From Paraspadella gotoi (lineage: Eukaryota > Animalia > Chaetognatha), in assembly GCA_051294375.1 (NCBI GenBank), contig CM119265.1, positions 28,022,665 to 28,086,664 of the forward strand: a DNA stretch of 64,000 bases, in the 5' to 3' direction. The notes below the pieces were generated by a model. The model made no database searches. It was not told the origin of the DNA and saw only the letters and a list, made by a program, of their open reading frames with translations. Positions 12,197 through 45,143 of the stretch are shown piece after piece (the stretch's first letter is position 1; each line of letters opens with the position of its first letter). The translations under genes and the position numbers were made by a program.

Positions 12197-12459
12197 AGAA
12201 AGAGAGAGAGCGATTCGGTGCGACCGATAATTGTGACACTCGCTTCAATTTTCGTCCAATTGTTCACGTGATGTGAAATCAAGACGAGCGTTCGATTTCA
12301 GTTTCAAATTCGTTTTGTGAAAAATTAAGGAAAAATCAGTTGACGAAATTTATTCGTCGGAATAATATTCTCTCTTCTCTTTTTGTCTACTCTATTCTTC
12401 AATCTTTCTTCTCTATTTTCTGCGATTCTCTCTCTCCTGTCTATTCTCCGTTTTCTTTC

Positions 12460-13055
12460 TGTAGAAGAGATTGGCGTGGTTTATTCTCTTCATTTACATC
12501 ATTTTCTTCATTTACGTTTTCTGCATTTACTTGGGAGATTTTTCTCCACTTTCTTTCTCCTTTAGATATATAGGCCTCAGTAGATACTCATAGACTTTCT
12601 ACCCGTCCACAAACGGCTTTTCACGAGAGAGACAGAGCCGTTACGTTACGTCAAGCACCTTTTGTCACCGTTTCAGAACAGTCATTTGATGGGTCCAGGA
12701 CCCACAGGGAGACCACATAGACTCGATGTCGAGATAGACTTGTGGACACACTTGTGGAGGCCGAGGCTCAGACTTTGACCCACTGCTACGGACTTATGGT
12801 CTCACCATCTAGAGACCACAGAGGGTCTTGGTGACCTTGTCGACCACGGCCCACGTCGCCCCATAGGCGTCGACGGGCTCTTCTTCCCAAGACGGCGGCC
12901 GGCCGTAGGAGACGTCCGCGAGCAGATGTCGGCAGGGCCGCGCCCACTTCCGGCGAAGACGACGAGGGACGCGTACGTCAGTCTCTTTACGTTGGAGCAA
13001 GACGGGGAGGAGGACGGAGAGACGACCCCCACGTAGGGCTAAGACAGCCTTTACA
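12460..13055 (+). repeat. 5' LTR of the BEL/Pao element
   Basis: Starts TGTAG, ends TTTACA. Near-identical to 23813-24406, differing mostly by 1-nt indels. TATA-like TATATA at 12567-12572. Confidence 0.95.
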
Positions 13056-13065
13056 GTGAAAAGCC
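13056..13065 (+). promoter_or_regulatory. Non-canonical primer-binding site GTGAAAAGCC (candidate self-priming site)
   Basis: Abuts the 5' LTR end, lacks TGG, and is the exact reverse complement of GGCTTTTCAC at 12615-12624 inside the LTR. Confidence 0.7.
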
Positions 13066-13221
13066 TAAACTGTCTCTCCGTGTTGGGTCTCTACTCAAGT
13101 ACGGTGAGTATGACAGTATCACAGTACCTTATTTGAAGACATGAATTTATAGACATCAGTAGCTTGTAGACTAACACTGTGTATATTAAAACCTTATTTA
13201 TCTTGTTTGCATATACGCGCG

Positions 13222-16200
13222 ATGGCATCCTCTCAGCCCGATGGCCCCCCGCAGGATGGGGTGGGTGGAACTAGTCCCGAGGAATTCGCCGACCAACTTG
13301 AATGCCTGCGACATACATTCCAAGGCCTGTTCAACAGGGCCCTCGAAACCGGGACTCAGGCAGATCGTACCTCCGCAAATAGCATGCGGGAGGCCCTGGG
13401 GGCTAAGAAAGAGGCAGCGATGCATCTCGCGGGCGAGTATAGACTTCGAAATAATCATCCGTTGTCATTAGCTATAGTCAGAGTAAGAGACTTCATGGAA
13501 GATAATCCTCAATTCCCTCTAACTTTCACGGGACTGGGAAACATGACAACCACAAATAACCCTGGATCCCGACCCGGATCCCGGGCCACTTCCCCATTTC
13601 TTCCTCTCCCCAACCCCACAAGTGGAACAGTGGGAAGAGGTGGGGGCCGTGGAAGCAGTGGGCGGGCAACGCCAACAGTGGGGGGGGCAGCGGCAAATCA
13701 AGAGGAAGAAGCTCCCATAGCTTCTCGTCTCAGGTCATCTGTGTCAGCCCCTCCGTTTCAGACTGCTTTCATGACCCCCCTCTTGAGCGAAGCAAATGGG
13801 CAATTGGAGAGAAATAGACCTACGGGCGAACAATTCACTGCTTTCAGGCCGATACGCCCTGATAATCTGTCTCAAAGAATTAACACGGCAACAACTACGG
13901 GATTGTGTGCAACCGTAGCCACTGCAACAGCGACATCAACAGTAGTCACCACAACGATTATTGATACAATACCGACAGCTTCGATAACATCAGCCTATCC
14001 CCCCACAAGCTCGACAGACGAAATTCGACGAGCAGTGGAAGGGGCGATGCAGCAGGTTGTGAATGAACAGGCGGCCAGAGTCAATCAAGCTGAGGAAGAA
14101 TATGAGAGAGAATTGGCAGCTCTTCGACAACGACATCAGCAACAATTAGAGGCTGCCGAACGACAAGCGGCTCGTCAGCGCCTCAGAGTGCGACATGAGT
14201 CTGAGGAGTTGAATCGCACACTCGATGCTCGGACACTCAACGACTACAACCCGACAATCCTGCCGGCGGTTTTTTCGGGGCATGTGCCAGTATCTACGGC
14301 ACCGCCCCCGATTACAGCTGGAGTTGGCGCGGGTGTCAATGCGCCTCGGTCGGGAAATCTCCTCGCAGATTTAGCGGCAGGATTGGCCGCCCGAACTCCA
14401 AGAGTAGTCCTTCCCACCGAAAACAGCCCGCCGGCAGCAGATATTACCTCATTGAGTGGACGATTATCAGCCATGGAGATTCACGCTCAGCGTCAAGCAG
14501 CAGCCCACGAAGCTGAGAGAGAACGGTGGAGGACCGATCGAGAGAATTGGCGGGCAGAAAGGGAGAGTTATGAGAGAAACTTTGAATCAAGGGTGGTGAG
14601 GATGGTGACCATGCTAACAGGTCAAGCAAGTGCAGGAAGCGCTCTTCCAGCACCTGCCCCTCCTCCGCCACCTCTACGTCATCCCCCCCCTCCAGGTCCG
14701 CTCTTGGGAGGTTTCACGTCTCGAACAGATGTGCCAGTTCACGAGAGATGTCCTCCACTAACAAGAGACCCAATATTTCAGATCCAACAAGATCAAATTG
14801 CGCAACTGACAGATCAACTCGGTCAACTTCAAAATCGTTTAGCTAATATTAGCATGGAGAGACACGGTGAGGGAGAAGCTCTGGAGGCGCACACGCCTCC
14901 ACCGACTAATCCCCCAGAATCCAGACAATTTGAGCGTTATTTACACTCTCAGTCTACGGAATCTACTATCCGTATGCTGAAGGACTTACGTCCTGAAGAA
15001 GTGTTCATGAGTGAAGATGCAAAGAACAAAGTAGTTTTTGAGATACACATGCGGCAATGGGAATCGGTAATGTCTCAACCTGGCGTCACCGATCAGATGC
15101 GCCACCAGGAGCTGCGACACTGGTTCGGAGGCTTAGCCAGACTGAAGCTTCAAAAATACTTCCATCGTACCGATTACGCCTCAGCCGTCGCAGAAGCAAT
15201 CTCCATGCTGCAACGTGAATTTGGCCGACCGGATGCCTCTCCCCACGAGATGCTCAAAGACTGCCTATCTGGGGGAAAGGCTACGGAAGCCACAGAGATT
15301 GATGAGACAATAACACGCCTTGAAAACATCATCGGCATTGCAGAGGCCAAAGGCCGGATGCGAGACCTCAACCGTGATACCGTTATCGCCGAGATTCTTG
15401 ACACTAAATTTCCACAATGGAAAGATAAATTTGCAGAGGGAAACTCGGAATCAGTCTTCAAAAACAACAGAAAACTGACGATACATGAATTTGTCGAATT
15501 TCTTAAGATTCGCCTTGTGGCTGTAAAATCTGTCTATTTCAAGAAAAAACGATCCACTTCAACCGCTGTAGCAGCGGTGGCTTCCTCCTTGAACCCACCA
15601 CCCCCGGAAATGAACGGTGGGGGCCCACCAGAAGCCACAGGAGAGAATAGGAATAATGAGTCCTTGGACTCCTTAGAGGGAACTGATCCCACACGTTCCG
15701 AACAAAGACGAAGGAAACGATCCAGAAGAAGAAAAAGCAAAGAAAGAATACCCGAAATACCGGCTACGGCTGCTCCGAGCGAAACAGGCTGCGCCTATGT
15801 GATGGCCCAACAACCCCTGTACCAGGCCCCTCAGCCACCACAGCAGCCGATTCATCAAACAACCACAGCCGTCCCATCCCAAACACCTCAAGCGCCAACG
15901 CTGAATCCCGGAGCACCGATGTACGCATCGACACCAAATCGGCCAGCGACACTGCATTGTCACTTTTGCGGTCAGGCTCATATGATTTGGGATTGTGCAG
16001 GATATCAAGCACTTGGCGTCCAGGCGAGAGCAGACCTGATCGCAGGTAGAAGATTGTGTTTTAAGTGTTTGGGCGGATCACATTTAGCTTCAAGATGTAG
16101 AATGGGTATACAATGTACAGTCTGTAGAGGCAATCACCATATCACTCTGCATGGCATGGCACCTGTGCGCAGACTGAACCCTTTGAATCAATCAGTTCAG

Positions 16201-16455
16201 TATCAGCCAGCCCAGAGTTACCCTCAAACGCTTAGTTATGCCACTCCTGTATTCGTTAATCCCTCTCCCCCCACCCTCGCTCCCTTCCCCACAACCCAAC
16301 CCCCGTACCAGGCACCCGGGATGGTGAGTGGAGTTACAGCATTGGCCAACAATGGAGCCCCAGATGCAAGTCAAATTACTCCGAAGATGACGGCGGCTAT
16401 GCCCTCGACGGTGACGACAACGCCCACCGTCCAAGCTGGAACTGCCTCTAGTTGA
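13222..16455 (+). CDS. gag: BEL/Pao Gag (~1077 aa)
   Basis: Long ORF from ATG 13222 with the triple knuckle CHFCGQAHMIWDC / CFKCLGGSHLASRC / CTVCRGNHHITLH near the C-terminus. The N-terminal half is low-complexity and coiled-coil-like. Confidence 0.92.
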   Translation: MASSQPDGPPQDGVGGTSPEEFADQLECLRHTFQGLFNRALETGTQADRTSANSMREALGAKKEAAMHLAGEYRLRNNHPLSLAIVRVRDFMEDNPQFPLTFTGLGNMTTTNNPGSRPGSRATSPFLPLPNPTSGTVGRGGGRGSSGRATPTVGGAAANQEEEAPIASRLRSSVSAPPFQTAFMTPLLSEANGQLERNRPTGEQFTAFRPIRPDNLSQRINTATTTGLCATVATATATSTVVTTTIIDTIPTASITSAYPPTSSTDEIRRAVEGAMQQVVNEQAARVNQAEEEYERELAALRQRHQQQLEAAERQAARQRLRVRHESEELNRTLDARTLNDYNPTILPAVFSGHVPVSTAPPPITAGVGAGVNAPRSGNLLADLAAGLAARTPRVVLPTENSPPAADITSLSGRLSAMEIHAQRQAAAHEAERERWRTDRENWRAERESYERNFESRVVRMVTMLTGQASAGSALPAPAPPPPPLRHPPPPGPLLGGFTSRTDVPVHERCPPLTRDPIFQIQQDQIAQLTDQLGQLQNRLANISMERHGEGEALEAHTPPPTNPPESRQFERYLHSQSTESTIRMLKDLRPEEVFMSEDAKNKVVFEIHMRQWESVMSQPGVTDQMRHQELRHWFGGLARLKLQKYFHRTDYASAVAEAISMLQREFGRPDASPHEMLKDCLSGGKATEATEIDETITRLENIIGIAEAKGRMRDLNRDTVIAEILDTKFPQWKDKFAEGNSESVFKNNRKLTIHEFVEFLKIRLVAVKSVYFKKKRSTSTAVAAVASSLNPPPPEMNGGGPPEATGENRNNESLDSLEGTDPTRSEQRRRKRSRRRKSKERIPEIPATAAPSETGCAYVMAQQPLYQAPQPPQQPIHQTTTAVPSQTPQAPTLNPGAPMYASTPNRPATLHCHFCGQAHMIWDCAGYQALGVQARADLIAGRRLCFKCLGGSHLASRCRMGIQCTVCRGNHHITLHGMAPVRRLNPLNQSVQYQPAQSYPQTLSYATPVFVNPSPPTLAPFPTTQPPYQAPGMVSGVTALANNGAPDASQITPKMTAAMPSTVTTTPTVQAGTASS

Positions 16456-19400
16456 CTAGCGGTTGCGTCCATCCCAGGCGAAGCGACATTTCGTCCAGTC
16501 GTGCCTGTCGTTGTCGAGATGGGTGGACGCAAAGCCACGACCTACGCCATGATCGACAGCGGTTGCAACCGCTGCGTCATCAAAGAAAAAATTGCAGATC
16601 AACTAGGGTTAGCTAGAATTGAAATTCCTATGAGAATTAGAACATTAGATAGTGATACTATAATCTCAAAAAACGTTGCAGACTTTAATTTCGAACCCCT
16701 CGACGGTAGCTTTTCCATCTCCGTTAAGAAAGCCATTGTGGGAAACCTGCTGACATCAGAAGACGACCTTCCCCCTTGCAACGCAGATGTGGCTGGAATA
16801 CCTCATCTAGAGGGGGTTTCGTTTCCTGATCTCCATGACAAGGAGGTCGGGATGCTCATCCCAGCGGGATACGCCTACACATGGACTGATGGAGAAGTAC
16901 GTCGAGGCCCTAAAGATCAACCTATAGCTATGGAAACAATGTTTGGTTGGACATTGATAGGCCCGCGTCGCGGGAAAGGCGGAGATGATATAAATTGTGC
17001 CCGTCTTACCGTCGAGGAAGACGAAAAAAGGATTCAAGAAGATATTCGCCTCCTTTTCCATCGAGATTTCGTCCCAGCTCCAAGCAGCAAGAAACTGCCA
17101 TCCGTGGAGGACGAGTTCGCGATGGAACAGTTGAAGGCAACAATAAGGTTTGACAATGAAGTTGGGCATTATTTTGTTGGCCTTCCCTGGGTTAGAGGCA
17201 GGGAGAAGGCAGCGAACGTTCTTAATGGTAGGGACTCGGGGACTATGGCATTAAACCGCCTCAGATCTCTCATGAGAAAACTTGAACGCCGTCCGGGGGA
17301 CAAAAAGAAGGTGGTCGACGAAATGAAGAAGTTTGTGGATGAAGGACATGCGCGTAAGGTTGAAGGAGACAACCTTCCCGAAAATACACCGTATTGGACT
17401 CTCCCGCTTCTTGTTGTCGTACGACCAGATAAAGACAAAGTACGCATCTGCCATGACGCCCGTGCGAGCGCCGGAGGCAAATGTTTAAACGACGAACTGT
17501 TGACTGGTCCAGATTATATGACCAATATGCTGGGAGTACTGCTTCGTTCCCGGCGTCATCAAGTCGCTCTCTCTGCGGACATCCGCGGTTTTTTCCATCA
17601 GGTGTTCGTAGATGAGAATGACGTACATGTATTTAGGTACTGGTGGTTTGAAGATGAAGCGTGCACTAAACTAGCACTGTTTGAACTCAGAGTGCACATA
17701 TTTGGGGCAAAGAGTTCCCCAGTGGTAGCAAACTCTGAAGACACATGCCGAGACGCTTCGGGGATTCATCCCGTTGGAGGTGGTGGAAGCCATCATTCAA
17801 CAGTTTTATGTTGATGACTTTTTTGGGTCTGCCCCAGACGAACAATCTGCGCGTGACCTCAAAGAAGGTTTGACGGAAGCTCTCCGACGAGGTGGCTTCG
17901 AGCTTACAAAGTGGAAATGTACGTCACCATCTGTGCTGGAAGACGAACCCAACAAGGCTACAAACTTAAAAAAGTCATTTACTGACGGCAACGATAATGA
18001 TACGAAAGACGAAAAACCTTACGACAAAGTGTTGGGAGTATGCTTCTCGTTCGGCAGTGACGAATTTTCATATAATGTAAATCTCGAAAAGGTCCAGAGA
18101 AGATGTCTCACAAAAAGACAGATCTTGTCGCTCACAGCAAGTCTGTACGATCCCTTGGGTATAGTATCGCCCTTTGTTCTCAAAGGGCGCAATTTATTTC
18201 AGCGCGCGAATGCAGCTTCAGTGGATTGGGACTCCCCTCTGCCAGACGAGATCATTAAGGAGTTCGACCTCTGGAGGGAGCAAATTCCCCAGCTAAAGGA
18301 ATTCCATATGAAGCGATGGATTGCGACGCCGGAGACTACAGATCATAAGGCTGAGTTGCATGTTTTTTCTGATGCTAGCCATGATGGATATGGTGTTGCT
18401 TGTTATCGACGTACGGTACCGCCTGAAGGAGGCGAATCTCATGTTGCTTTTTTGTTTTCAAGGTCGCGAGTTACACCCCTCGACTCATCAAAGGCATCTC
18501 ACCACAACTCCATCCCTCGACTGGAGCTGACGGCGGCGTGCCTGGCGGCGGAGATAAGATACATGATTCAAGAAGAATGCACCAACGATCGGTTTGAAAA
18601 AGTTGTTATGTGGACAGATTCAGAGACAGTCCTTAAACAGATATTTGACAAAAAGTCCAAATTTGCTGCCTTTTTTAAGAATCGCTTGTCTCGTATCAGG
18701 GAGCTAACCGACATCGGAGACTGGCGGTACATATCGACCCATGAAAATCCTGCAGACGATTGTAGTCGCGGCCTTCGTCTTGATGATCCAAAGTGGAAGA
18801 GATTTCACTTCGGCCCAGATTTCCTACGTCGTCCAGAGGAGGAGTGGCCGGAGCAAAAATTATCACCGTCATCTCTTTCATCCGAAGTTTTCGTGACCGA
18901 TGTCGACGACATCGAACCAGAGGAAAACCCAAAAAAGAAAAATACTAAGGATGAACATTGGGCATTACGCATTGCGCGGCAATGTTCCGACTCACGCCAA
19001 AAACTCTATTTGATTGCCGGAATGAAAAAATGTATTCTACACTGGATTGAATGGAGACGCGCGTTGAAGATAGATCCCAACGCACAACCAAAAAAACTAC
19101 AGTACACTACGCTCAAAGACACAAAAGACGCAGAAAAACTTTTGTGCCAAGCATTACAATTACGATATTTTGCGGACGAATACCGTCATCTCGAACAAAA
19201 AAACGTCCGATCCCCAGATGCGCGAGCGGAGCTAACGCTGACAAAATCTAAACTGCGGACGCTCAATCCCTTCCTGGATGAAGCGGGCATCATTCGAATC
19301 GGCGGAAGAATTGGAAAGGCACATTTGCCTTACGATACACGACACCCCATAGTACTACCAAAAAAAGATAGGATTGTGGATGACTACATCCGACATATCC

Positions 19401-20812: not shown

Positions 20813-22974
20813 ATGAGTCGACAAGCTCCATCAAACTACCGTCCTCATCAACTGAACCAGCCGGGCGCGACAACCACGATCGTTACGATTCACCCAATGG
20901 CAGTGGGTTCTGCGGCCGCTTGGGTCGCCTTTGGAAGACGGCGTTTCTTGGATCCAGTGTACGCTATCCTCGGCACTTTGTCGCCGCAGGAGTTTGAATC
21001 GCAGTTAGGGCCATGGGCGGACGCGGGAGATCTTACGGCGCATCTCCCACCAGAGGGCGCACTATCTGCGCTGTGGCGCCTAAGGAAAACGAGCGGCCGT
21101 TCCATCACCATAGCAGACAACGTTAGTTGGTACCCGGGATGCACAGTCTCAAGCGCCCCAGATTCCATTGTTGTAAATCTACAACAGTCTACCTTCGATA
21201 ACTTAGACGAAGCACGGCAGGCTTTGGCCTCAGCGATTTCTCAAGGACGCAATCCCTGCCCCGCCCGTCCTTCCTCCCTCCCTTCTCTTCCTCGTGCGCC
21301 AGTTCCTCCTCCCCCCTCCCGAGCAGCAGCCATCCTGCTGCAAGAGGAGGCAAGGGCGGAGGAGCGGGCGCAACCAGAGGTTGAGATAGTGGAACGCGTG
21401 GTCGAGGAGGCATCACCTCCTCGAGCACGAAGAAAGAAAAAAAGGAGCGAACGACGCCGTACGATTAACAACGAGAGAATGGTTATGCACGCGAGAATGA
21501 TGGAGGCAAAGAACGTAACCCCTGAAGCTGCTGCTGCTTCGGTTCCAGCCAAGTCTTCTCCAGCCGGAGTGCCCGCTGTAAGCAGCGGGCAATCGGCTCC
21601 TCTCCCGGTAATGGACGTAGATGAAGATCAGGAAAAGATGGACGAGAATGATCCCTTTGGTCTCGAACAAGTCAAGAACAGCTCGACGCTATCTGCAGAG
21701 CCAAATCCTGTTGGTTTTAGCAGCCTCTGCGAGATCTCATCGCTTGGGTCGTCGAAAACTTGGTTCGATCGAGTAATCGAAGAGGAAGAGGAAGATAGGA
21801 GAAATGAGAGAGCCAAGCGAGCCGCACGTCAAAACGCAGAGATAGAACAAGATTTGGCGGCCGGCATCTTGGGACGGGTGGCGATGCATTCGCCTCAAAA
21901 TACCTCTACACCTGTCCACAATATTACAACTCCTACAGAACCAGGACAAAGGAGGTTTCTAATGAAATCAAAAGAAATTAATTTTTTTATTACATTTATT
22001 ACGTTATGTTTAATCTCTTTTACTTTATCTTTTCCCTTGTTTTCTCTTTTTCTCTCTCTTCTTCTGTCCTCTTTTTCTTTTTTTTTTCTCCTCCCCCCCC
22101 TTGTGTTCCCCATATACCCAGGTGCGACGTTTTCGATCCAAATGACTCCAACCCGATCATCGATCTGGAGTCCCTGCCAGAGAAAATTTCCGAACGCAGA
22201 AAGAGGGATTTCGGTTCAAAATCCAGCATCGAATCTTCGTCCGAAACAATTAGGGCCGGGAAAACGGAGGAGGAAGAGGAGGGAAAGAACGATAATCATC
22301 CGGACCACCAGACGTGGGGCTTACCTCGGGAGGAGGCGAATGAGGCACGCCGCCAATACCGTCAAGCTCAAGATCAACTCATGTCTGACGGCCAGATGTC
22401 GGTGGAGAGGTCTCAAAGATGGCGTGAATATAAAGCATGGGACGATCGTGGTGGCACCTTCGTTCGACCAGCTCGCCCACCAAAGAAGAAACGTACAATA
22501 ACTTTAACATCCGCGACCAGACCGAGGGGATGCCCCTCTCTCAATCCCCGTAACTTCGAAATCGACCCTAATCCTCATGGCTTTCGTTGCCAAGACGTCA
22601 GAAAGGAATATCGCGAAACTGCCATCACGTTCATTGAGAAACCTTCGGGAGAGACGACGGCAATCCCTTCAAGATCACTTTTCACTACGACGATCAAATC
22701 TTCCACTTCAGTGACCCCGACGACATCTGTCTCAATTCTACCTACAGTTACCACACCAATAAACGCAACAAGGACCGACGAAACATGCGACGAAATCAGC
22801 TTTCCGGATCCTTCCTCTATTTCTTCCACGGATGAGTCATTTGCCTCGGCCTACGACATCCCCGAGGCTGAGGCGAATTCCCCTTCCATGCCCGAGCTGA
22901 CTCTCGCAGAGGAACGATCCATCCTTGGTGAAGATGAAATCAAAATCACAATGGACGACAACGACGATCTCTAA
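20813..22974 (+). CDS. ORF3 of the BEL element; predicted spliced 664-aa protein of unknown function (exons 20813-21954 and 22122-22974)
   Basis: Two GC-rich open frames are separated by an AT/pyrimidine-rich GT...AG segment (21955-22121). Removing it joins them in frame (...PGQR-R-CDVFDP...). Basic NLS-like motifs RARRKKKRSERRR and PPKKKR. Confidence 0.7.
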
Positions 22975-23800
22975 GGTGACGATGAATTCCCGCATCTCAG
23001 ACCCGCTGGGCTCAGCGGGCCAAACGCGACGCAAGCCTCGCCAGCGTCGACGTCTTGATCTACTGCTTTCAGCGCGATCGACTCGGCGCGATGATCTCCA
23101 AAACCGGAACTGTTTTAAGGAAACGAACTTGAAATCTGGACTATTATCAAATTTATTCATGTATTTATTCATTAACTTCAAAAGACGGTGAATTTTATTT
23201 AAATTTTAAAATGGCGTTAACCTTTAAAAATCATGTTCGTACATATATTTTTTTTTCTTTTTCTATTGAACCACCAAGTTACTCTTTACGCGTTTTCGAA
23301 TTATGTACGTGAATCATGGAATCAAGATTGATTTTTCTTTCTTTAATCAAGTTGGTAAAGCAACGTTTATATATTCTGTTTATTTACTCACGTAGTGGTC
23401 ACACACATCTATGTCTTATGCTTTCATAATGTTTTATAGTAGAAAGTTGACGCATTTTTTAGGACATTTATTCATTAGCGATGACGTTAACGTTGGGATA
23501 CATTTTCTAATCATATTAATTTTGTCACTATTTCTTGAAAGCAAGATAGATCTACCGTTTGTAGCCGGGTTTTATAAACACTAAGAATAAGAACTAAAAT
23601 ATTTTCGATTCTTCCAATTTTTTTCTTCATTTTATCATTTCCTCATTTTTTTCTTTCTTTTTTTTATTATTTCCCTCCACCCTGACTCTTCTCTTCTTTT
23701 TTCCTTATTTCTGCCTTTTTTCCTTCTTTTTCCCGTCCCGACATCCCCCCCCCAGCTCGGAGCGGTGAGCGTGTTTGCTCCAGCCCTCTGAAGGAGTGCT

Positions 23801-23812
23801 GGAGGGTGGGGG
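23801..23812 (+). promoter_or_regulatory. Polypurine tract
   Basis: GGAGGGTGGGGG immediately 5' of the TG of the 3' LTR. Confidence 0.85.
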
Positions 23813-24406
23813 TGTAGAGAGTATTGGCGTGGTTTATTCTCTTCATTTACATCATTTTCTTCATTTACCGTTTTCTGCATTTACTTGGGAGATTTTTCTC
23901 CACTTTCTTTCTCCTTTAGATATATTAGGCCCAGTAGATACTCATAGACTTTCTACCCGTCCACAAACGGCTTTTCACGAGAGAGACAGAGCCGTTACGT
24001 TACGTCAAGCACCTTTTGTCACCGTTTCAGAACAGTCATTTGATGGTCAGGACCCACAGGGAGACCACATGACTCGATGTCGAGATAGACTTGTGGACAC
24101 ACTTGTGGAGGCCGAGGCTCAGACTCTGACCCACTGCTACGGACTTATGGTCTCACCACCTGGAGACCACAGAGGGTCTTGGTGACCTTGTCGACCACGG
24201 CCCACGTCGCCCCATTAGGCGTCGACGGGCTCTTCTTCCCAAGACGGCGGCCGGCCGTAGGAGACGTCCGCGAGCAGATGTCGGCAGGGCCGCGCCCACT
24301 TCCGGCGAAGACGACGAGGGACGCGTACGTCAGTCTCTTTACGTTGGAGAAGACGGGGAGGAGGACGGAGGAGCCGACCCCACGTAGGGCTAAGACAGCC
24401 TTTACA
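23813..24406 (+). repeat. 3' LTR of the BEL/Pao element
   Basis: TGTAG...TTTACA, direct repeat of 12460-13055. Confidence 0.95.
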
Positions 24407-24914
24407 CCTTTCTTCCTCTATTTTTATTTCTCATTCACTATTCCGAGTCTCTTCTTCTCTTATCTCTATTTTCTCTTTCCTATACCAGAATCTACGGCTA
24501 CCTCTCTATTCCACTTTCTTCAAACTCGAAAACAAAAAGATGCAAATTTTGAAAACTTGAAGAGGAAAACAAACAAAAGAAAATGACTAAAGCGATGACG
24601 ATGACAAAAAGGATGATGAAAATAATGACGATGACAGTGACGACGACGACGACAGCGACGACGGTGATAGCGATGACGATGACAGAGACGACGATGACAG
24701 CGACGACGGTGATAGCGATGACGATGACAGCGACGACGATGACAGAGACGACGATGATAGCGATGACGATGACAGGAATGTGGAGGAAACACGAAATATC
24801 ACTGTTTTAAAAACGATGGGAAACTTAATGACATAAACGACAAAGATGATGACAATGATAATTCGAAAGACGGCGAGAAAAAAATATCGCAATGATGGCA
24901 ATAATGAAGTCTGA

Positions 24915-40770: not shown

Positions 40771-41723
40771 CTGAAGGAAGGAAATTAATTAATTAATTAT
40801 TTATATTAATTATTTAATAAATAATAAATTTAAAAAAAAATAAATATTAAATAAATAAATTAATAAATTTAAAAAATAAAAGAATTAAAAATAAATAAAT
40901 ACAAAAATAAATGAATTGTTAGGCTTGGAACCCCGAAATCGGCCCCATCGGGATCCGGCCATCAGGGCGAGTAGCCAACTATTGGATGAAGAACTTTATC
41001 TCTAACTTGTAAATATCAAACCCTTAATTAAATCAAATATAACAAAAGACATATACCCGAGATTCGATCTCGGGACCTTGGGAAGCGGCAATGACATGTT
41101 GAGTGGCATTGCGCACACAGGCAGATACAATATAGATATTCCAATAACCTAATTATCCTTAAGTAGCATTTACTTATATGTTAAACAAATGAACAAACAC
41201 AATTAACACAGATAGATCTGCACTAGCTATCTCAACATATGTTTCACTATTGTTAACTAATTTCTCTTATTTCTCTTTTCTCTCTTCAATGAGAAAAGAA
41301 TTGTCAAATGAACTACAAATAAGTTTATGATGTTTATTACTGTTTATGCTTTATTTTGCTATTGTTGTTGCATATAGATGTTATAGCTGCTTGCTGACAA
41401 AAGCAACTGATATTCTATATGCTTTGATTATTTATTAAGGTCTGCTTTTATAATTAACCAAGCAAGTTGGTAAGAGACAATTTATTAATAAACAATAAAC
41501 TAACGGCGCCACGAGAACTACGCCAACGTCAACGTCTCCCATTTCCGGTCAACGTCTTTCCTCTTACTGATGCCCGTGGCGACGTTCCGCTCAATACCGG
41601 TTTGATCCGCACATTGGTGAAGTCCCGACTTCGACGTCGCGCCTTTCCATCTCTGAAAGGCGCTCCAACCTTCCGACACAACCACGCCTTCAAAAGACGC
41701 CGTCAATCTTCGGCGTCACCTTC

Positions 41724-42845
41724 TTGATGTCGCTTAACGTTCCAGGAGTCACGACGCGCGGCCAATCCCGGGCGACCCATCCTCCACAACCCCGCCTGCC
41801 GTCTCCACGCCTGGGGGAGGAAGAGGTCCCGGTGTCTCAAGTTGGCCGTCAATCAACGCCGACCTCAGCTGAACCGACCCAACTCTTTCAGTTTCCAGCT
41901 CCGGCCCGTTTTTTCAACAATCATCCGGCGATGGCCGAAGCCCCGCCGACCCAAACGGAGATGGATTCCCTCCGCTCCGCCCTCGACGCTGCTCTCGCCG
42001 CCGCCGAGGCCGCTCGTAACGCCTTAGCACGCAGCGAAAAACCCAAAAAACCCGAACTGCCGTCCTTCGATAAGAACAATATCGAAATTTGGATCAGAAG
42101 AGTCGAGTCAGCATATACAAGATCCAGAATCACGACTCCCAAAGACAAGTTCGCTTTTCTCGAGTCCAAGATAGCCGTCGACGTAAATCCAAAGATCAAC
42201 GCCTTTTTATTCGGTGAACCAACTGAAGAAAACTGGGCGGATTTCATTGATTACTTGAAGACCGAGTATGGTTTGACCAAACGTCGACAGGCCGAGATAC
42301 TACTGGATGCTAAAATAGGACGAGACGGCCTCAAGCCATCCCAACAGCTCGCCAGGATGGTCGAGCGTTCTCCAACAGTGACCGTGGATGACATTCGAAA
42401 GGAGCTGATTATCCGCAGCCTCCCCTTGGACATTCGTGCCAACTTAATCGATCGCGCCGATGAATTAACGGCGTCTCAATTTTCCGAGCTGGCCGACAAA
42501 CATTTTGACGCCGAGGGAAGGCCACTCTGCAAGTCCACGGCGCCCATAGTCAATGTCGTTGATGCGGAACTCGACGATTCTTTAACTGACGAAGAAAATC
42601 AAACGGCGATCAACGCCGTCAATCGACGCCGCGACCAAAACCGCTCGGCGCCGCCGAGGCATTCCAACTTCTCAAAGCAGGGCCAACCAAAGGCGCCGAC
42701 ACCGCCAGCCTCCGGATTAAAGCAAGTTTGCTTTTTTCATTTAAAGTATGGCGATGCTGCTCGACGTTGCCAACGCGGATGCGCCCGCTACGGAGAAAAA
42801 CGCGCCGATAATGCGGGAAACGCCTCGGCGAGCCGGCGCCGGTGA
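41724..42845 (+). CDS. gag: Gypsy Gag with CHCC zinc motif
   Basis: KPELPSFDKNNIEIWIRRVE N-terminal signature and CFFHLKYGDAARRCQRGC (C-X2-H-X9-C-X3-C), as in CsRn1-clade Gag. Confidence 0.85.
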   Translation: MMSLNVPGVTTRGQSRATHPPQPRLPSPRLGEEEVPVSQVGRQSTPTSAEPTQLFQFPAPARFFNNHPAMAEAPPTQTEMDSLRSALDAALAAAEAARNALARSEKPKKPELPSFDKNNIEIWIRRVESAYTRSRITTPKDKFAFLESKIAVDVNPKINAFLFGEPTEENWADFIDYLKTEYGLTKRRQAEILLDAKIGRDGLKPSQQLARMVERSPTVTVDDIRKELIIRSLPLDIRANLIDRADELTASQFSELADKHFDAEGRPLCKSTAPIVNVVDAELDDSLTDEENQTAINAVNRRRDQNRSAPPRHSNFSKQGQPKAPTPPASGLKQVCFFHLKYGDAARRCQRGCARYGEKRADNAGNASASRRR

Positions 42846-43014
42846 ACGCCGTGCCTCGCCAAAACGGAAATTCGCCGATGAAATCGAATTTGCTTCACGT
42901 CGTCGACGCCAGCGACGGCCGCGCATGGCTGGTCGACGGCGGCGCCCTGCTTTCTCTTGTTCCTCCGACGCCGCAACAGCGCGCCGCTGGACCAGCAGGC
43001 CCCCAATTACAGGC
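42815..43014 (+). CDS. pol: Start of Gypsy pol (protease) in the -1 frame
   Basis: G GGA AAC slippery site at 42815-42821. The -1 frame reads LLHVVDASDGRAWLVDGGALLSLVP. Truncated by the gap. Confidence 0.75.
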
Positions 43015-43189
43015 NNNNNNNNNNNNNNNNNNNNNNNNNNNNNNNNNNNNNNNNNNNNNNNNNNNNNNNNNNNNNNNNNNNNNNNNNNNNNNNNNNNNNN
43101 NNNNNNNNNNNNNNTTTGTCTACTCTATTCTTCAATCTTTCTTCTCTATTTTCTCGATTCTCTCTCCTGTCTATTCTCCGTTTTCTTTC

Positions 43190-43912
43190 TGTAGAGAGAT
43201 TGGCGTGGTTTATTCTCTTCATTTACATCNNNNNNNNNNNNNNNNNNNNNNNNNNNNNNNNNNNNNNNNNNNNNNNNNNNNNNNNNNNNNNNNNNNNNNN
43301 NNNNNNNNNNNNNNNNNNNNNNNNNNNNNNNNNNNNNNNNNNNNNNNNNNNNNNNNNNNNNNNNNNNNNNNNNNNNNNNNNNNNNNNNNNNNNNNNNNNN
43401 NNNNNNNNNNNNNNNNNNNNNNNNNNNNNNNNNNNNNNNNNNNNNNNNNNNNNNNNNNNNNNNNNNNNNNNNNNNNNNNNNNNNNNNNNNNNNNNNNNNN
43501 NNNNNNNNNNNNNNNNNNNNNNNNNNNNNNNNNNNNNNNNNNNNNNNNNNNNNNNNNNNNNNNNNNNNNNNNNNNNNNNNNNNNNNNNNNNNNNNNNNNN
43601 NNNNNNNNNNNNNNNNNNNNNNNNNNNNNNNNNNNNNNNNNNNNNNNNNNNNNNNNNNNNNNNNNNNNNNNNNNNNNNNNNNGTCTTGGTGACCTTGTCG
43701 ACCACGGCCCACGTCGCCCCATTAGGCGTCGACGGGCTCTTCTTCCCAAGACGGCGGCCGGCCGTAGGAGACGTCCGCGAGCAGATGTCCGGCAGGGCCG
43801 CGCCACTTCCGGCGAAGACGACGAGGGACGCGTACGTCAGTCTCTTTACGTTGGAGCAAGACGGGGAGGAGGACGGAGAGACGACCCCCACGTAGGGCTA
43901 ACAGCCTTTACA
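43190..43912 (+). mobile_element. Third copy of the BEL LTR (solo LTR or gap-collapsed element)
   Basis: Same TGTAG start and TTTACA end with an internal N gap. Left flank matches 12383-12459 and right flank matches 24407 onward. Confidence 0.85.
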
Positions 43913-44419
43913 CCTTTCTTCTCTTATTTTTATTTCTCATTCACTATTCCGAGTCTTCTTTCTTCTCTATTCTCTATTTTCTCTTTCCTATTCCAGAATC
44001 TACGGCTACCTCTCTATTCCACTTTCTTCAAACTCGAAAACAAAAAGATGCAAATTTTGAAAACTTGAAGAGGAAAACAAACAAAAGAAAATGACTAAAG
44101 CGATGACGATGACAAAAAGGATGATGAAAATAATGACATGACAGTGACGACGACCGACAGCGACGACGGTGATAGCGATGACGATGACAGAGACGACGAT
44201 GACAGCGACGACGGTGATAGCGATGACGATGACAGCGACGACGATACAGAGACGACGATGATAGCGATGACGATGACAGGAATGTGGAGGAAACACGAAA
44301 TATCACTGTTTTAAAAACGATGGGAAACTTAATGACATAAACGACAAAGATGATGACAATGATAATTCGAAAGACGGCGAGAAAAAAATATCGCAATGAT
44401 GGCAATAATGAAGTTCTGA

Positions 44420-44453
<34 letters not shown>

Positions 44454-45073
44454 CAGAAACGAAAATGACGAAGATATAATGAAGGAATAATGAGGAATGA
44501 TGAAAATTAAAAGAAAGACCATGAGTAAAATGATAATGATGACGATGACGATGACAACGAAAACAACAACAACGACGAGACACCTCCCCTAAAAAAAACG
44601 AATTTCTAACGAAATTTAAATTTTCCTTTCAAAATTATTTCGTTCAAAGGAGCAGAAAAGAGTTTAAATTTGAAGAGTAGAGCTGATTTAAGGAGCTTAA
44701 TAATGTTGAGGAGTTAAAGAGAGGAGTTTTTTTTAATTTAAAATGTGTCAAGATTGAATGAAGGAGTCAACCGAAATGGATTCACGTGAATAAGAAATTC
44801 ACTTAATCAAATTCAATAAAAAATTGTTAAGTAAATGAGTTGTATGAAAAAATAAATATATGAAAAGGTGGCCGGTGAAATATGAAATACTTACGAATAA
44901 GTTTGGTTTGTCGAAAATATTCAAAGAATCTTTTTCCACCGAAAATGAAAAAAAAAGAAAATAATTTATTTTTTCTTTTTGTGCTGATCAAAAAAAAAAT
45001 GGGGGCATCGAGTGAAACCATCACCGGCGCCAAAAAGTGTGAAGATTCACAAAGAAGGAAGATGCAAATTGAA

Positions 45074-45143
<70 letters not shown>

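What the first reader, a model, noticed from the sequence alone, without database searches (positions are those of the whole stretch)
16441..16510. gag-pol junction is an in-frame TGA-CTAG readthrough signal
Seen: gag ends AGT TGA CTA GCG, and the same frame stays open (LAVASIPGEATFRPVVPV...) straight into the protease with no ATG before the first protease strand. Known: UGA-CUA(G) is the leaky stop context of alphaviruses and of mammalian readthrough genes such as AQP4; most BEL/Pao elements have a single fused or frameshifted ORF. Inference: Pol is made by programmed stop-codon readthrough, and the TGA is not a disabling mutation.
Basis: partly seen in the sequence, partly recalled or inferred. 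Interest (0 to 1): 0.72.

Follow-up and report, generated by a model that had tools for sequence, protein, structure and literature searches.

The report
Leaky gag stop in BEL/Pao clade
A retrovirus-like jumping gene has its coat gene and enzyme gene in one reading frame, split by a single UGA stop followed by CUAG, and a distant relative keeps the same seven letters at the same spot, so ribosomes likely read through the stop now and then to make the enzymes, a trick known from other retroelements.

Summary
In an 11.9-kb BEL/Pao LTR element, gag (1077 codons) ends at TGA 16453-55, CTAG follows, and pol continues in frame with no ATG until codon 22. A metagenomic relative (L001, about 40% identical in Pol, synonymous sites saturated) has the same TGA-CTAG as the only in-frame stop between gag and protease. 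All 29 closest Pol clusters begin at or inside the protease; the 27 placed in a tree form one branch with the window and L001 (SH-aLRT 100), while 132 of 138 scorable outside proteins carry over 250 residues before the protease Asp. The window has a strong stem-loop 7 nt behind the stop (rank 1 of 90 windows); L001 lacks it but has UGA-CUAGGC, the OPRL1 context. Splicing, a shared start codon and a changed code found no support. Programmed readthrough is the likely mechanism (0.8), untested, with junction DNA from only two lineages. This copy is Pol-defective through a separate RT frameshift. Readthrough at gag-pol is known (Tj1, MuLV); I found no paper describing it for such a BEL/Pao clade.

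The parts
12460..13055 (+). 5' LTR (TGT...ACA)
   Evidence: 97% to 3' LTR, 4 substitutions in 589 aligned bases plus 12 one-base gaps; ends
13056..13065 (+). primer-site position; no TGG tRNA site, exact complement of LTR 12615-12624 (possible self-priming)
13222..16455 (+). gag, 1077 codons, three Cys/His knuckles, last one ends 100 codons before the stop
   Evidence: capsid-like region has only borderline Atlas look-alikes
16453..16459 (+). UGA-CUAG, in-frame stop with leaky-type context
   Evidence: same 7 letters at L001:2068-2074
16463..16532 (+). predicted stem-loop starting 7 nt after the stop (9-bp basal helix 16463-71 / 16524-32)
   Evidence: z -4.0 to -4.5, rank 1 of 90 windows in gag-pol; 1 of 182 control duplexes as good; not found in L001
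16456..20491 (+). pol (PR-RT-RNase H-IN), in frame with gag; catalytic Asp 16555-16557; broken by a frameshift in RT near 17735
20813..22974 (+). extra 3' gene of unknown family with a GT..AG intron 21955-22121 (664 codons when spliced)
   Evidence: joined form in contigs of X6 and X1; no Pfam hit, no Atlas hit for residues 1-170
23791..23812 (+). polypurine tract
23813..24406 (+). 3' LTR

Best explanation
This BEL/Pao retrotransposon has gag and pol in one frame separated by UGA-CUAG, a junction it shares with a distant relative, and ribosomes likely stop there most of the time (Gag) and would now and then insert an amino acid and go on (Gag-Pol), setting an excess of coat over enzymes. Shown: the anatomy, the shared seven letters in two deep branches, and pol called apart from gag throughout the clade. 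Predicted: a stem-loop 7 nt behind the stop that would raise readthrough in this family; L001 would rely on the stronger CUAGGC context alone. Inferred from known systems: decoding by a near-cognate tRNA (Trp, Cys or Arg; recalled), an efficiency of a few to tens of percent, and release of the protease from Gag-Pol. In this particular copy the readthrough product would end early because of the RT frameshift.
For: (1) L001 (Pol 39-42% identical) has gag open for 689 codons with three knuckles, then TGA-CTAGGC, then 989 open pol codons; Asp at codon 38 against 34 here. (2) That match is not leftover similarity: only 55 of 169 identical non-Met/Trp residues and 2 of 18 identical leucines share a codon; the 7-mer is the only long identical run in 70 nt around the stop; CTA is 18 of 199 Leu codons here and 7 of 167 in L001; my arithmetic gives about 0.003, or about 0.009 if Leu is fixed by the protein. 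(3) 29 of 29 nearest Pol clusters lack Gag: 25 start 3-32 residues before the Asp, 4 behind it; of 231 other proteins 138 could be scored, 132 have more than 250 residues before the Asp, 2 have 60 or fewer. 84 of 125 cluster members that cover the protease reach at most 34 residues before the Asp. (4) 27 of these clusters, the window and L001 are one side of a branch, SH-aLRT 100, against 36 others (quick tree). (5) Control: of 41 scorable loci of 76, only L001 has TGA-CTAG before the protease. (6) Stem-loop at the spacing of known signals (7-9 nt spacers in PMC3159437). (7) UGA-CUAG gives efficient readthrough in reporters; CUAGGC is the OPRL1 and Ross River virus context (PMC4132726).
Against: Junction DNA is in hand for only two lineages; for the other 28 clusters the proteins show a break before the protease but cannot tell an in-frame stop from a frameshift, and their starts come from automatic gene calls. 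The stem-loop is not conserved in L001 (z -0.1 to -1.2, rank 36 of 62; 142 of 182 control duplexes as good) and rests on one sequence without covariation. In Candida Tca2 a similar gag-UGA-pol context did not direct readthrough in baker's yeast reporters (PMC2194720). The four runs are nearly identical in sequence and two may be the window's source, so they do not test selection. The clade was first delimited by search rank, so its border is partly my choice. No expression, ribosome or protein data.
Confidence: 0.8

Rival explanations
1. Pol is made separately from Gag: by re-initiation, internal initiation or a promoter near the junction (a Tca2-like non-standard bypass).
For: Tca2 has gag-UGA-pol and a promoter activity at the junction, and its local context was not leaky in S. 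cerevisiae. L001 has Met at codons 15 and 19 after the stop.
Against: No shared start: the window's first Met is codon 22, behind the first protease strand; called starts in the clade scatter from 32 residues before the Asp to behind it. It does not explain why pol stays in gag's frame or why CUAG is kept.
Confidence: 0.08
2. CTAG is a splice acceptor (YAG) and a spliced RNA skips the stop.
For: The element does use host-type introns (21955-22121); a GTGAGT donor-like site lies at 16324; a conserved AG fits an acceptor.
Against: Pyrimidine share before the AG is 0.50 (96 of 203 YAG sites as high) and 0.46 in L001 (52 of 94), against 0.79 at the real intron; the 16324 donor is phase 0 and would put pol out of frame (frame arithmetic); no joint at the junction among those listed for 4 runs, though the other intron's joined form shows in 2 (contigs drop rare forms). 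It does not explain TGA-C or the kept frame.
Confidence: 0.05
3. UGA is recoded by another route: A-to-I editing of the stop, selenocysteine, or a host code that reads UGA as sense.
For: One predicted fold pairs the UGA itself in a long helix.
Against: All 33 Trp codons here and all 30 in L001 are TGG, with no other in-frame TGA; no SECIS family match in the element; L001 has no such helix; a 5' G neighbour is disfavoured by ADAR (recalled).
Confidence: 0.04
4. The TGA is a chance nonsense mutation in a once-fused gag-pol of a dead copy.
For: The copy is defective elsewhere (RT frameshift); chance stops before the protease occur in other families (L020, L021: TAA-TCTT 26 codons before the Asp where sister copies read on).
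Against: Same stop, place and context in L001; no fused form above 37% identity among the best 120 of 825 proteins of 1611-4600 aa; 29 of 29 clade clusters split.
Confidence: 0.02

Closest known systems
Fission-yeast Ty3/gypsy elements Tj1, Tosmo1-3, Tcry1 (bioRxiv 10.1101/2022.12.06.519325; passages read)
   Same: gag and pol in one frame split by TGA followed by CT(A/G); the stop is reported essential in Tj1; they also self-prime, as this element may
   Different: Other superfamily (chromoviruses) and host; they conserve GAA before the stop, whereas the window has AGT and L001 GCA; here CUAG in full and, in one family, a 3' stem-loop
Alphavirus nsP3/nsP4 UGA-CUA(G) readthrough with 3' stem-loop (PMC3159437, passages) and mammalian UGA-CUAG genes AQP4, OPRL1, OPRK1, MAPK10 (PMC4132726, passages)
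   Same: UGA-CUAG; stem starting 7 nt behind the stop (window); CUAGGC hexamer without structure (L001)
   Different: Unrelated genes; those signals were tested in reporters, this one is not
Murine leukaemia virus gag-UAG-pol; Candida Tca2 gag-UGA-pol (PMC2194720, passages)
   Same: A stop between gag and pol sets the Gag:Pol ratio; structure 7-8 nt behind the stop
   Different: MuLV uses UAG, a purine-rich spacer and a pseudoknot; Tca2 is a copia element whose bypass is unresolved
BEL/Pao (Belpaoviridae) elements in general (PMC3118150, passages)
   Same: LTRs, Pao Peptidase_A17 region, three knuckles, PR-RT-RH-IN order, YVDD
   Different: Most relatives have fused gag-pol (132 of 138 scorable); this clade is split, this copy is 11.9 kb (4.2-10 kb is given as usual) with an extra spliced gene. 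I recall that Gao et al. 2003 (RNA 9:1422) list the BEL/Pao element Kamikaze with a stop between gag and pol; the paper is not held, so this is unverified

Membership tests
BEL/Pao LTR retrotransposon | Two direct LTRs (TG...CA) and a polypurine tract | tested here: met
BEL/Pao LTR retrotransposon | Pao-specific Pol domains, order PR-RT-RH-IN | tested here: met
   PF05380 E 8e-41, PF18701, PF17921; all near homologues carry PF05380 or PF00078
BEL/Pao LTR retrotransposon | Gag with three Cys/His knuckles (recalled feature); DUF1759 domain | tested here: inconclusive
   three knuckles found; no Pfam hit in Gag; a DUF1759 cluster scores 0.90 in the Atlas, a lead only
BEL/Pao LTR retrotransposon | tRNA primer-binding site behind the 5' LTR | tested here: not met
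   no TGG start; the 10 nt pair with the LTR instead; internal tRNA priming was not tested
Programmed gag-pol stop-codon readthrough | Single in-frame stop between open gag and open pol | tested here: met
   window, L001
Programmed gag-pol stop-codon readthrough | Stop and leaky context conserved beyond neutral expectation | tested here: met
   2 of 2 lineages with DNA; synonymous sites saturated
Programmed gag-pol stop-codon readthrough | Conserved 3' RNA structure (alphavirus type) | tested here: inconclusive
   strong in the window, absent in L001; no covariation data
Programmed gag-pol stop-codon readthrough | Fusion protein made at a set fraction | not testable with these tools
   needs reporter, ribosome profiling or mass spectrometry
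Selenocysteine or UGA-reassigned code | SECIS element, or TGA used at conserved Trp/Cys sites | tested here: not met

The most novel reading that the evidence does not exclude
A whole undescribed BEL/Pao branch, known so far only from unnamed environmental assemblies (at least 28 lineages at 90% identity), has replaced the fused gag-pol with UGA-CUAG readthrough, tunes it per family with either a stem-loop or the CUAGGC context, and pairs it with self-priming and an extra spliced gene, converging on the fission-yeast Tj1 design.
Probability: 0.35. Interest if true: 0.68.

Novelty: new variant of a known kind. Interest (0 to 1): 0.5.

Why it matters
It would add BEL/Pao elements to the retroelements that meter their enzymes by a leaky stop, with the very UGA-CUAG signal of alphaviruses and AQP4/OPRL1, reached independently. 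In practice, annotation tools would mark intact members of this clade as broken or miss their gag; and the two families give a natural pair (stem-loop versus CUAGGC) for testing what drives readthrough in an invertebrate. The mechanism as such is known, so it is a solid extension rather than a surprise.

Tried and rejected
No whole genome is held, so other copies at other loci could not be read. Scans for more junction DNA: viral contigs 0 relatives in 3 scans; genome contigs 0 then 6 loci, none with the junction signal; metagenome contigs 70 loci, 1 in the clade. L001's record is not searchable. The search of 50%-identity representatives never ran (queue full, 8 tries), so the clade's size and border rest on three word-index searches. 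A second laying of reads for sister families did not complete, so diverged families in the same organism stay unexamined. No RNA holder listed. The careful tree did not finish; the quick tree is cited, P0227 and P0229 were left out as too short, and 36 of 231 outside proteins were picked by hand. 93 of 231 outside proteins had no Asp located and were dropped from the count; 35 of 76 loci had no scorable protease. A conserved stem in L001, local or long-range, was looked for and not found. Rfam: one chance-level microRNA match, no SECIS. No tRNA gene in the window. Earlier notes by place or sequence: none. Literature: 0 papers for five searches joining BEL/Pao, Belpaoviridae, Kamikaze or 'UGA CUAG' with readthrough terms; one search listed 4, of which 2 were checked and use 'readthrough' for transcription and 2 were seen as listings only. 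Gao et al. 2003, the key survey, is not held.

Full report
Observation. The window reads AGT TGA CTA GCG at 16450-16461, with the stop at 16453-16455. The frame before it is open for 1100 codons (first ATG 13222, 1077 codons) and the same frame stays open behind it. The first Met behind the stop is codon 22, after the predicted first protease strand; the Asp of IDSG is codon 34. TGACTAG occurs once in the element. Contigs of 4 of 4 runs laid cross the stop without a listed difference; two of these runs may be the window's source and all are nearly identical, so this excludes an assembly error but does not show selection.

What the element is. It is an 11.9-kb BEL/Pao LTR retrotransposon: LTRs at 12460-13055 and 23813-24406 (4 substitutions in 589 aligned bases, 12 one-base gaps), a polypurine tract, Gag with three Cys/His knuckles, and Pol with the Pao Peptidase_A17, DUF5641 and integrase zinc-finger families. 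Pol of this copy is broken by a frameshift in RT near 17735, where relatives run on in one frame; the break also stands in the spanning contigs of X1, X2 and X6. An extra gene with one intron follows pol.

The test that matters: relatives. A scan of metagenome contigs gave 70 loci, one of them close (L001, 39-42% identical in Pol). L001 has a gag frame open for 689 codons to the contig end, with three knuckles that align to the window's (E 1e-15), then TGA CTA GGC as the only stop, then 989 open pol codons; its Asp is codon 38. The two elements are far apart: only 55 of 169 identical non-Met/Trp residues and 2 of 18 identical leucines use the same codon, and the seven letters are the only long identical run in the 70 nt around the stop. 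CTA is a rare Leu codon in both (18 of 199; 7 of 167). From these counts I put the chance of TGA-CTAG in L001, given a stop there, at about 0.003, or about 0.009 if the protein fixes Leu. As a control, none of the other 40 scorable loci (41 of 76 had a scorable protease) has TGA-CTAG as the nearest upstream stop; chance stops do occur there (L020, L021), in other contexts.

The clade. The 29 closest Pol clusters all lack Gag: 25 begin 3-32 residues before the Asp and 4 behind it. Of 231 other proteins, 138 could be scored; 132 have more than 250 residues before the Asp and 2 have 60 or fewer. Of 125 cluster members from 10 clusters, 84 cover the protease and none with a located Asp reaches more than 34 residues before it. 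The best of the fused proteins of 1611-4600 aa are 34-37% identical over the RT-IN part, against 40-46% for the split ones. In a quick ML tree of 65 rows, 27 of the 29 clusters, the window and L001 are one side of a long branch with SH-aLRT 100; the window and L001/P0007 lie on different deep branches of it. These proteins come from automatic gene calls without DNA, so they show a break before the protease but not its kind.

The signal. A stem-loop is predicted at 16463-16532, 7 nt behind the stop: z -4.0 to -4.5 for 70-80 nt windows, rank 1 of 90 windows along gag-pol, and 1 of 182 control positions forms as good a duplex. Known stimulatory stems start 7-9 nt behind the stop (PMC3159437, passages). 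Against it: L001 has no such structure (z -0.1 to -1.2, rank 36 of 62). L001 instead has UGA-CUAGGC, the sequence of OPRL1 and Ross River virus, for which 12 nt behind the stop sufficed in reporters (PMC4132726, passages). So the shared signal is the 7-mer; the stem is at most family-specific.

Rivals. Splicing at the AG of CTAG: the pyrimidine tract is ordinary (0.50 and 0.46 against 0.79 at the element's real intron), the nearby donor-like site is in the wrong phase, and no joint at the junction is listed in the contigs. Separate initiation: no shared start codon, but the Tca2 case shows that a gag-UGA-pol context need not be leaky (PMC2194720, passages). A changed code or selenocysteine: all 63 Trp codons in the two elements are TGG and no other in-frame TGA occurs; no SECIS match. 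A chance nonsense change is excluded by L001 and the clade.

Mechanism. Shown: frame, stop, context, conservation in two lineages, clade-wide split. Predicted: the stem. Inferred: most ribosomes end Gag at UGA, a minority insert a residue in the loose linker about ten residues before the protease and make Gag-Pol. I give this 0.8.

What is known. In-frame stops at gag-pol are described for MuLV, Tca2 and the fission-yeast elements Tj1, Tosmo and Tcry1, the last with TGA-CT (bioRxiv 10.1101/2022.12.06.519325, passages). Five searches joining BEL/Pao names with readthrough terms returned no paper; a sixth listed four, two checked and irrelevant. Passages of three BEL/Pao papers found by term held nothing on a junction stop. 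Gao et al. 2003 could not be read; I recall it names the BEL/Pao element Kamikaze with a gag-pol stop, which would make readthrough in BEL/Pao a prior suggestion. No supplements were opened. Unchecked notes of this scan report a gag-UAG-pol BEL/Pao element and UGA-CUAG junctions in copia and DIRS elements elsewhere; they are leads only and lower the surprise.

Verdict. Real, conserved and probably programmed readthrough in an apparently undescribed BEL/Pao branch: a new variant of a known kind, interest 0.5. A side finding, a Tf1-like self-priming arrangement at the primer site (Tf1 structure as described), is listed separately and is untested.

Noticed in passing
window 12615-12624, 13056-13065, 13014-13023, 13072-13081: No tRNA-type primer site; the first 10 nt behind the 5' LTR are the exact complement of an LTR segment, and a second 10-bp helix joins the LTR's end to the leader, like the Tf1 'pretzel'. 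Only 9 of 10,748 internal 10-mers have such a match in the LTR and two are these. A TATA-like box lies 48 nt before the segment; the transcript start is unknown. Earlier AI notes report the same for other BEL/Pao elements.
   Followed up: partly
window 20813-22974: Extra gene behind pol, 664 codons after removal of a 167-nt GT..AG intron; an intron-less form stands in contigs of X6 and X1, which, if these are DNA runs, points to a copy made from spliced RNA. No family found.
   Followed up: partly
window about 17735: Frameshift break in RT, shared by the spanning contigs of three runs, although the LTRs differ by only 4 substitutions: perhaps a defective lineage moved in trans, or one fixed insertion.
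   Followed up: partly
window 43115-45109: Second version of the same insertion site: both flanks and both LTR ends around a 453-N gap, so a solo LTR or an uncollapsed allele.
   Followed up: no
window 41571-43014: Fragment of another retroelement: gag-like ORF (weak DUF7041) overlapping a -1 frame ORF, with G_GGA_AAC in slippery-site phase at 42815-42821 (seen); cut by an N gap.
   Followed up: no
window 12454-12459 and 24407-24412: Target-site duplication is imperfect: TCTTTC before and CCTTTC after the element.
   Followed up: no
P0179, P0231: Two proteins outside the clade also start close to the protease Asp (34 and 52 residues); possibly separate split families or cut contigs.
   Followed up: no
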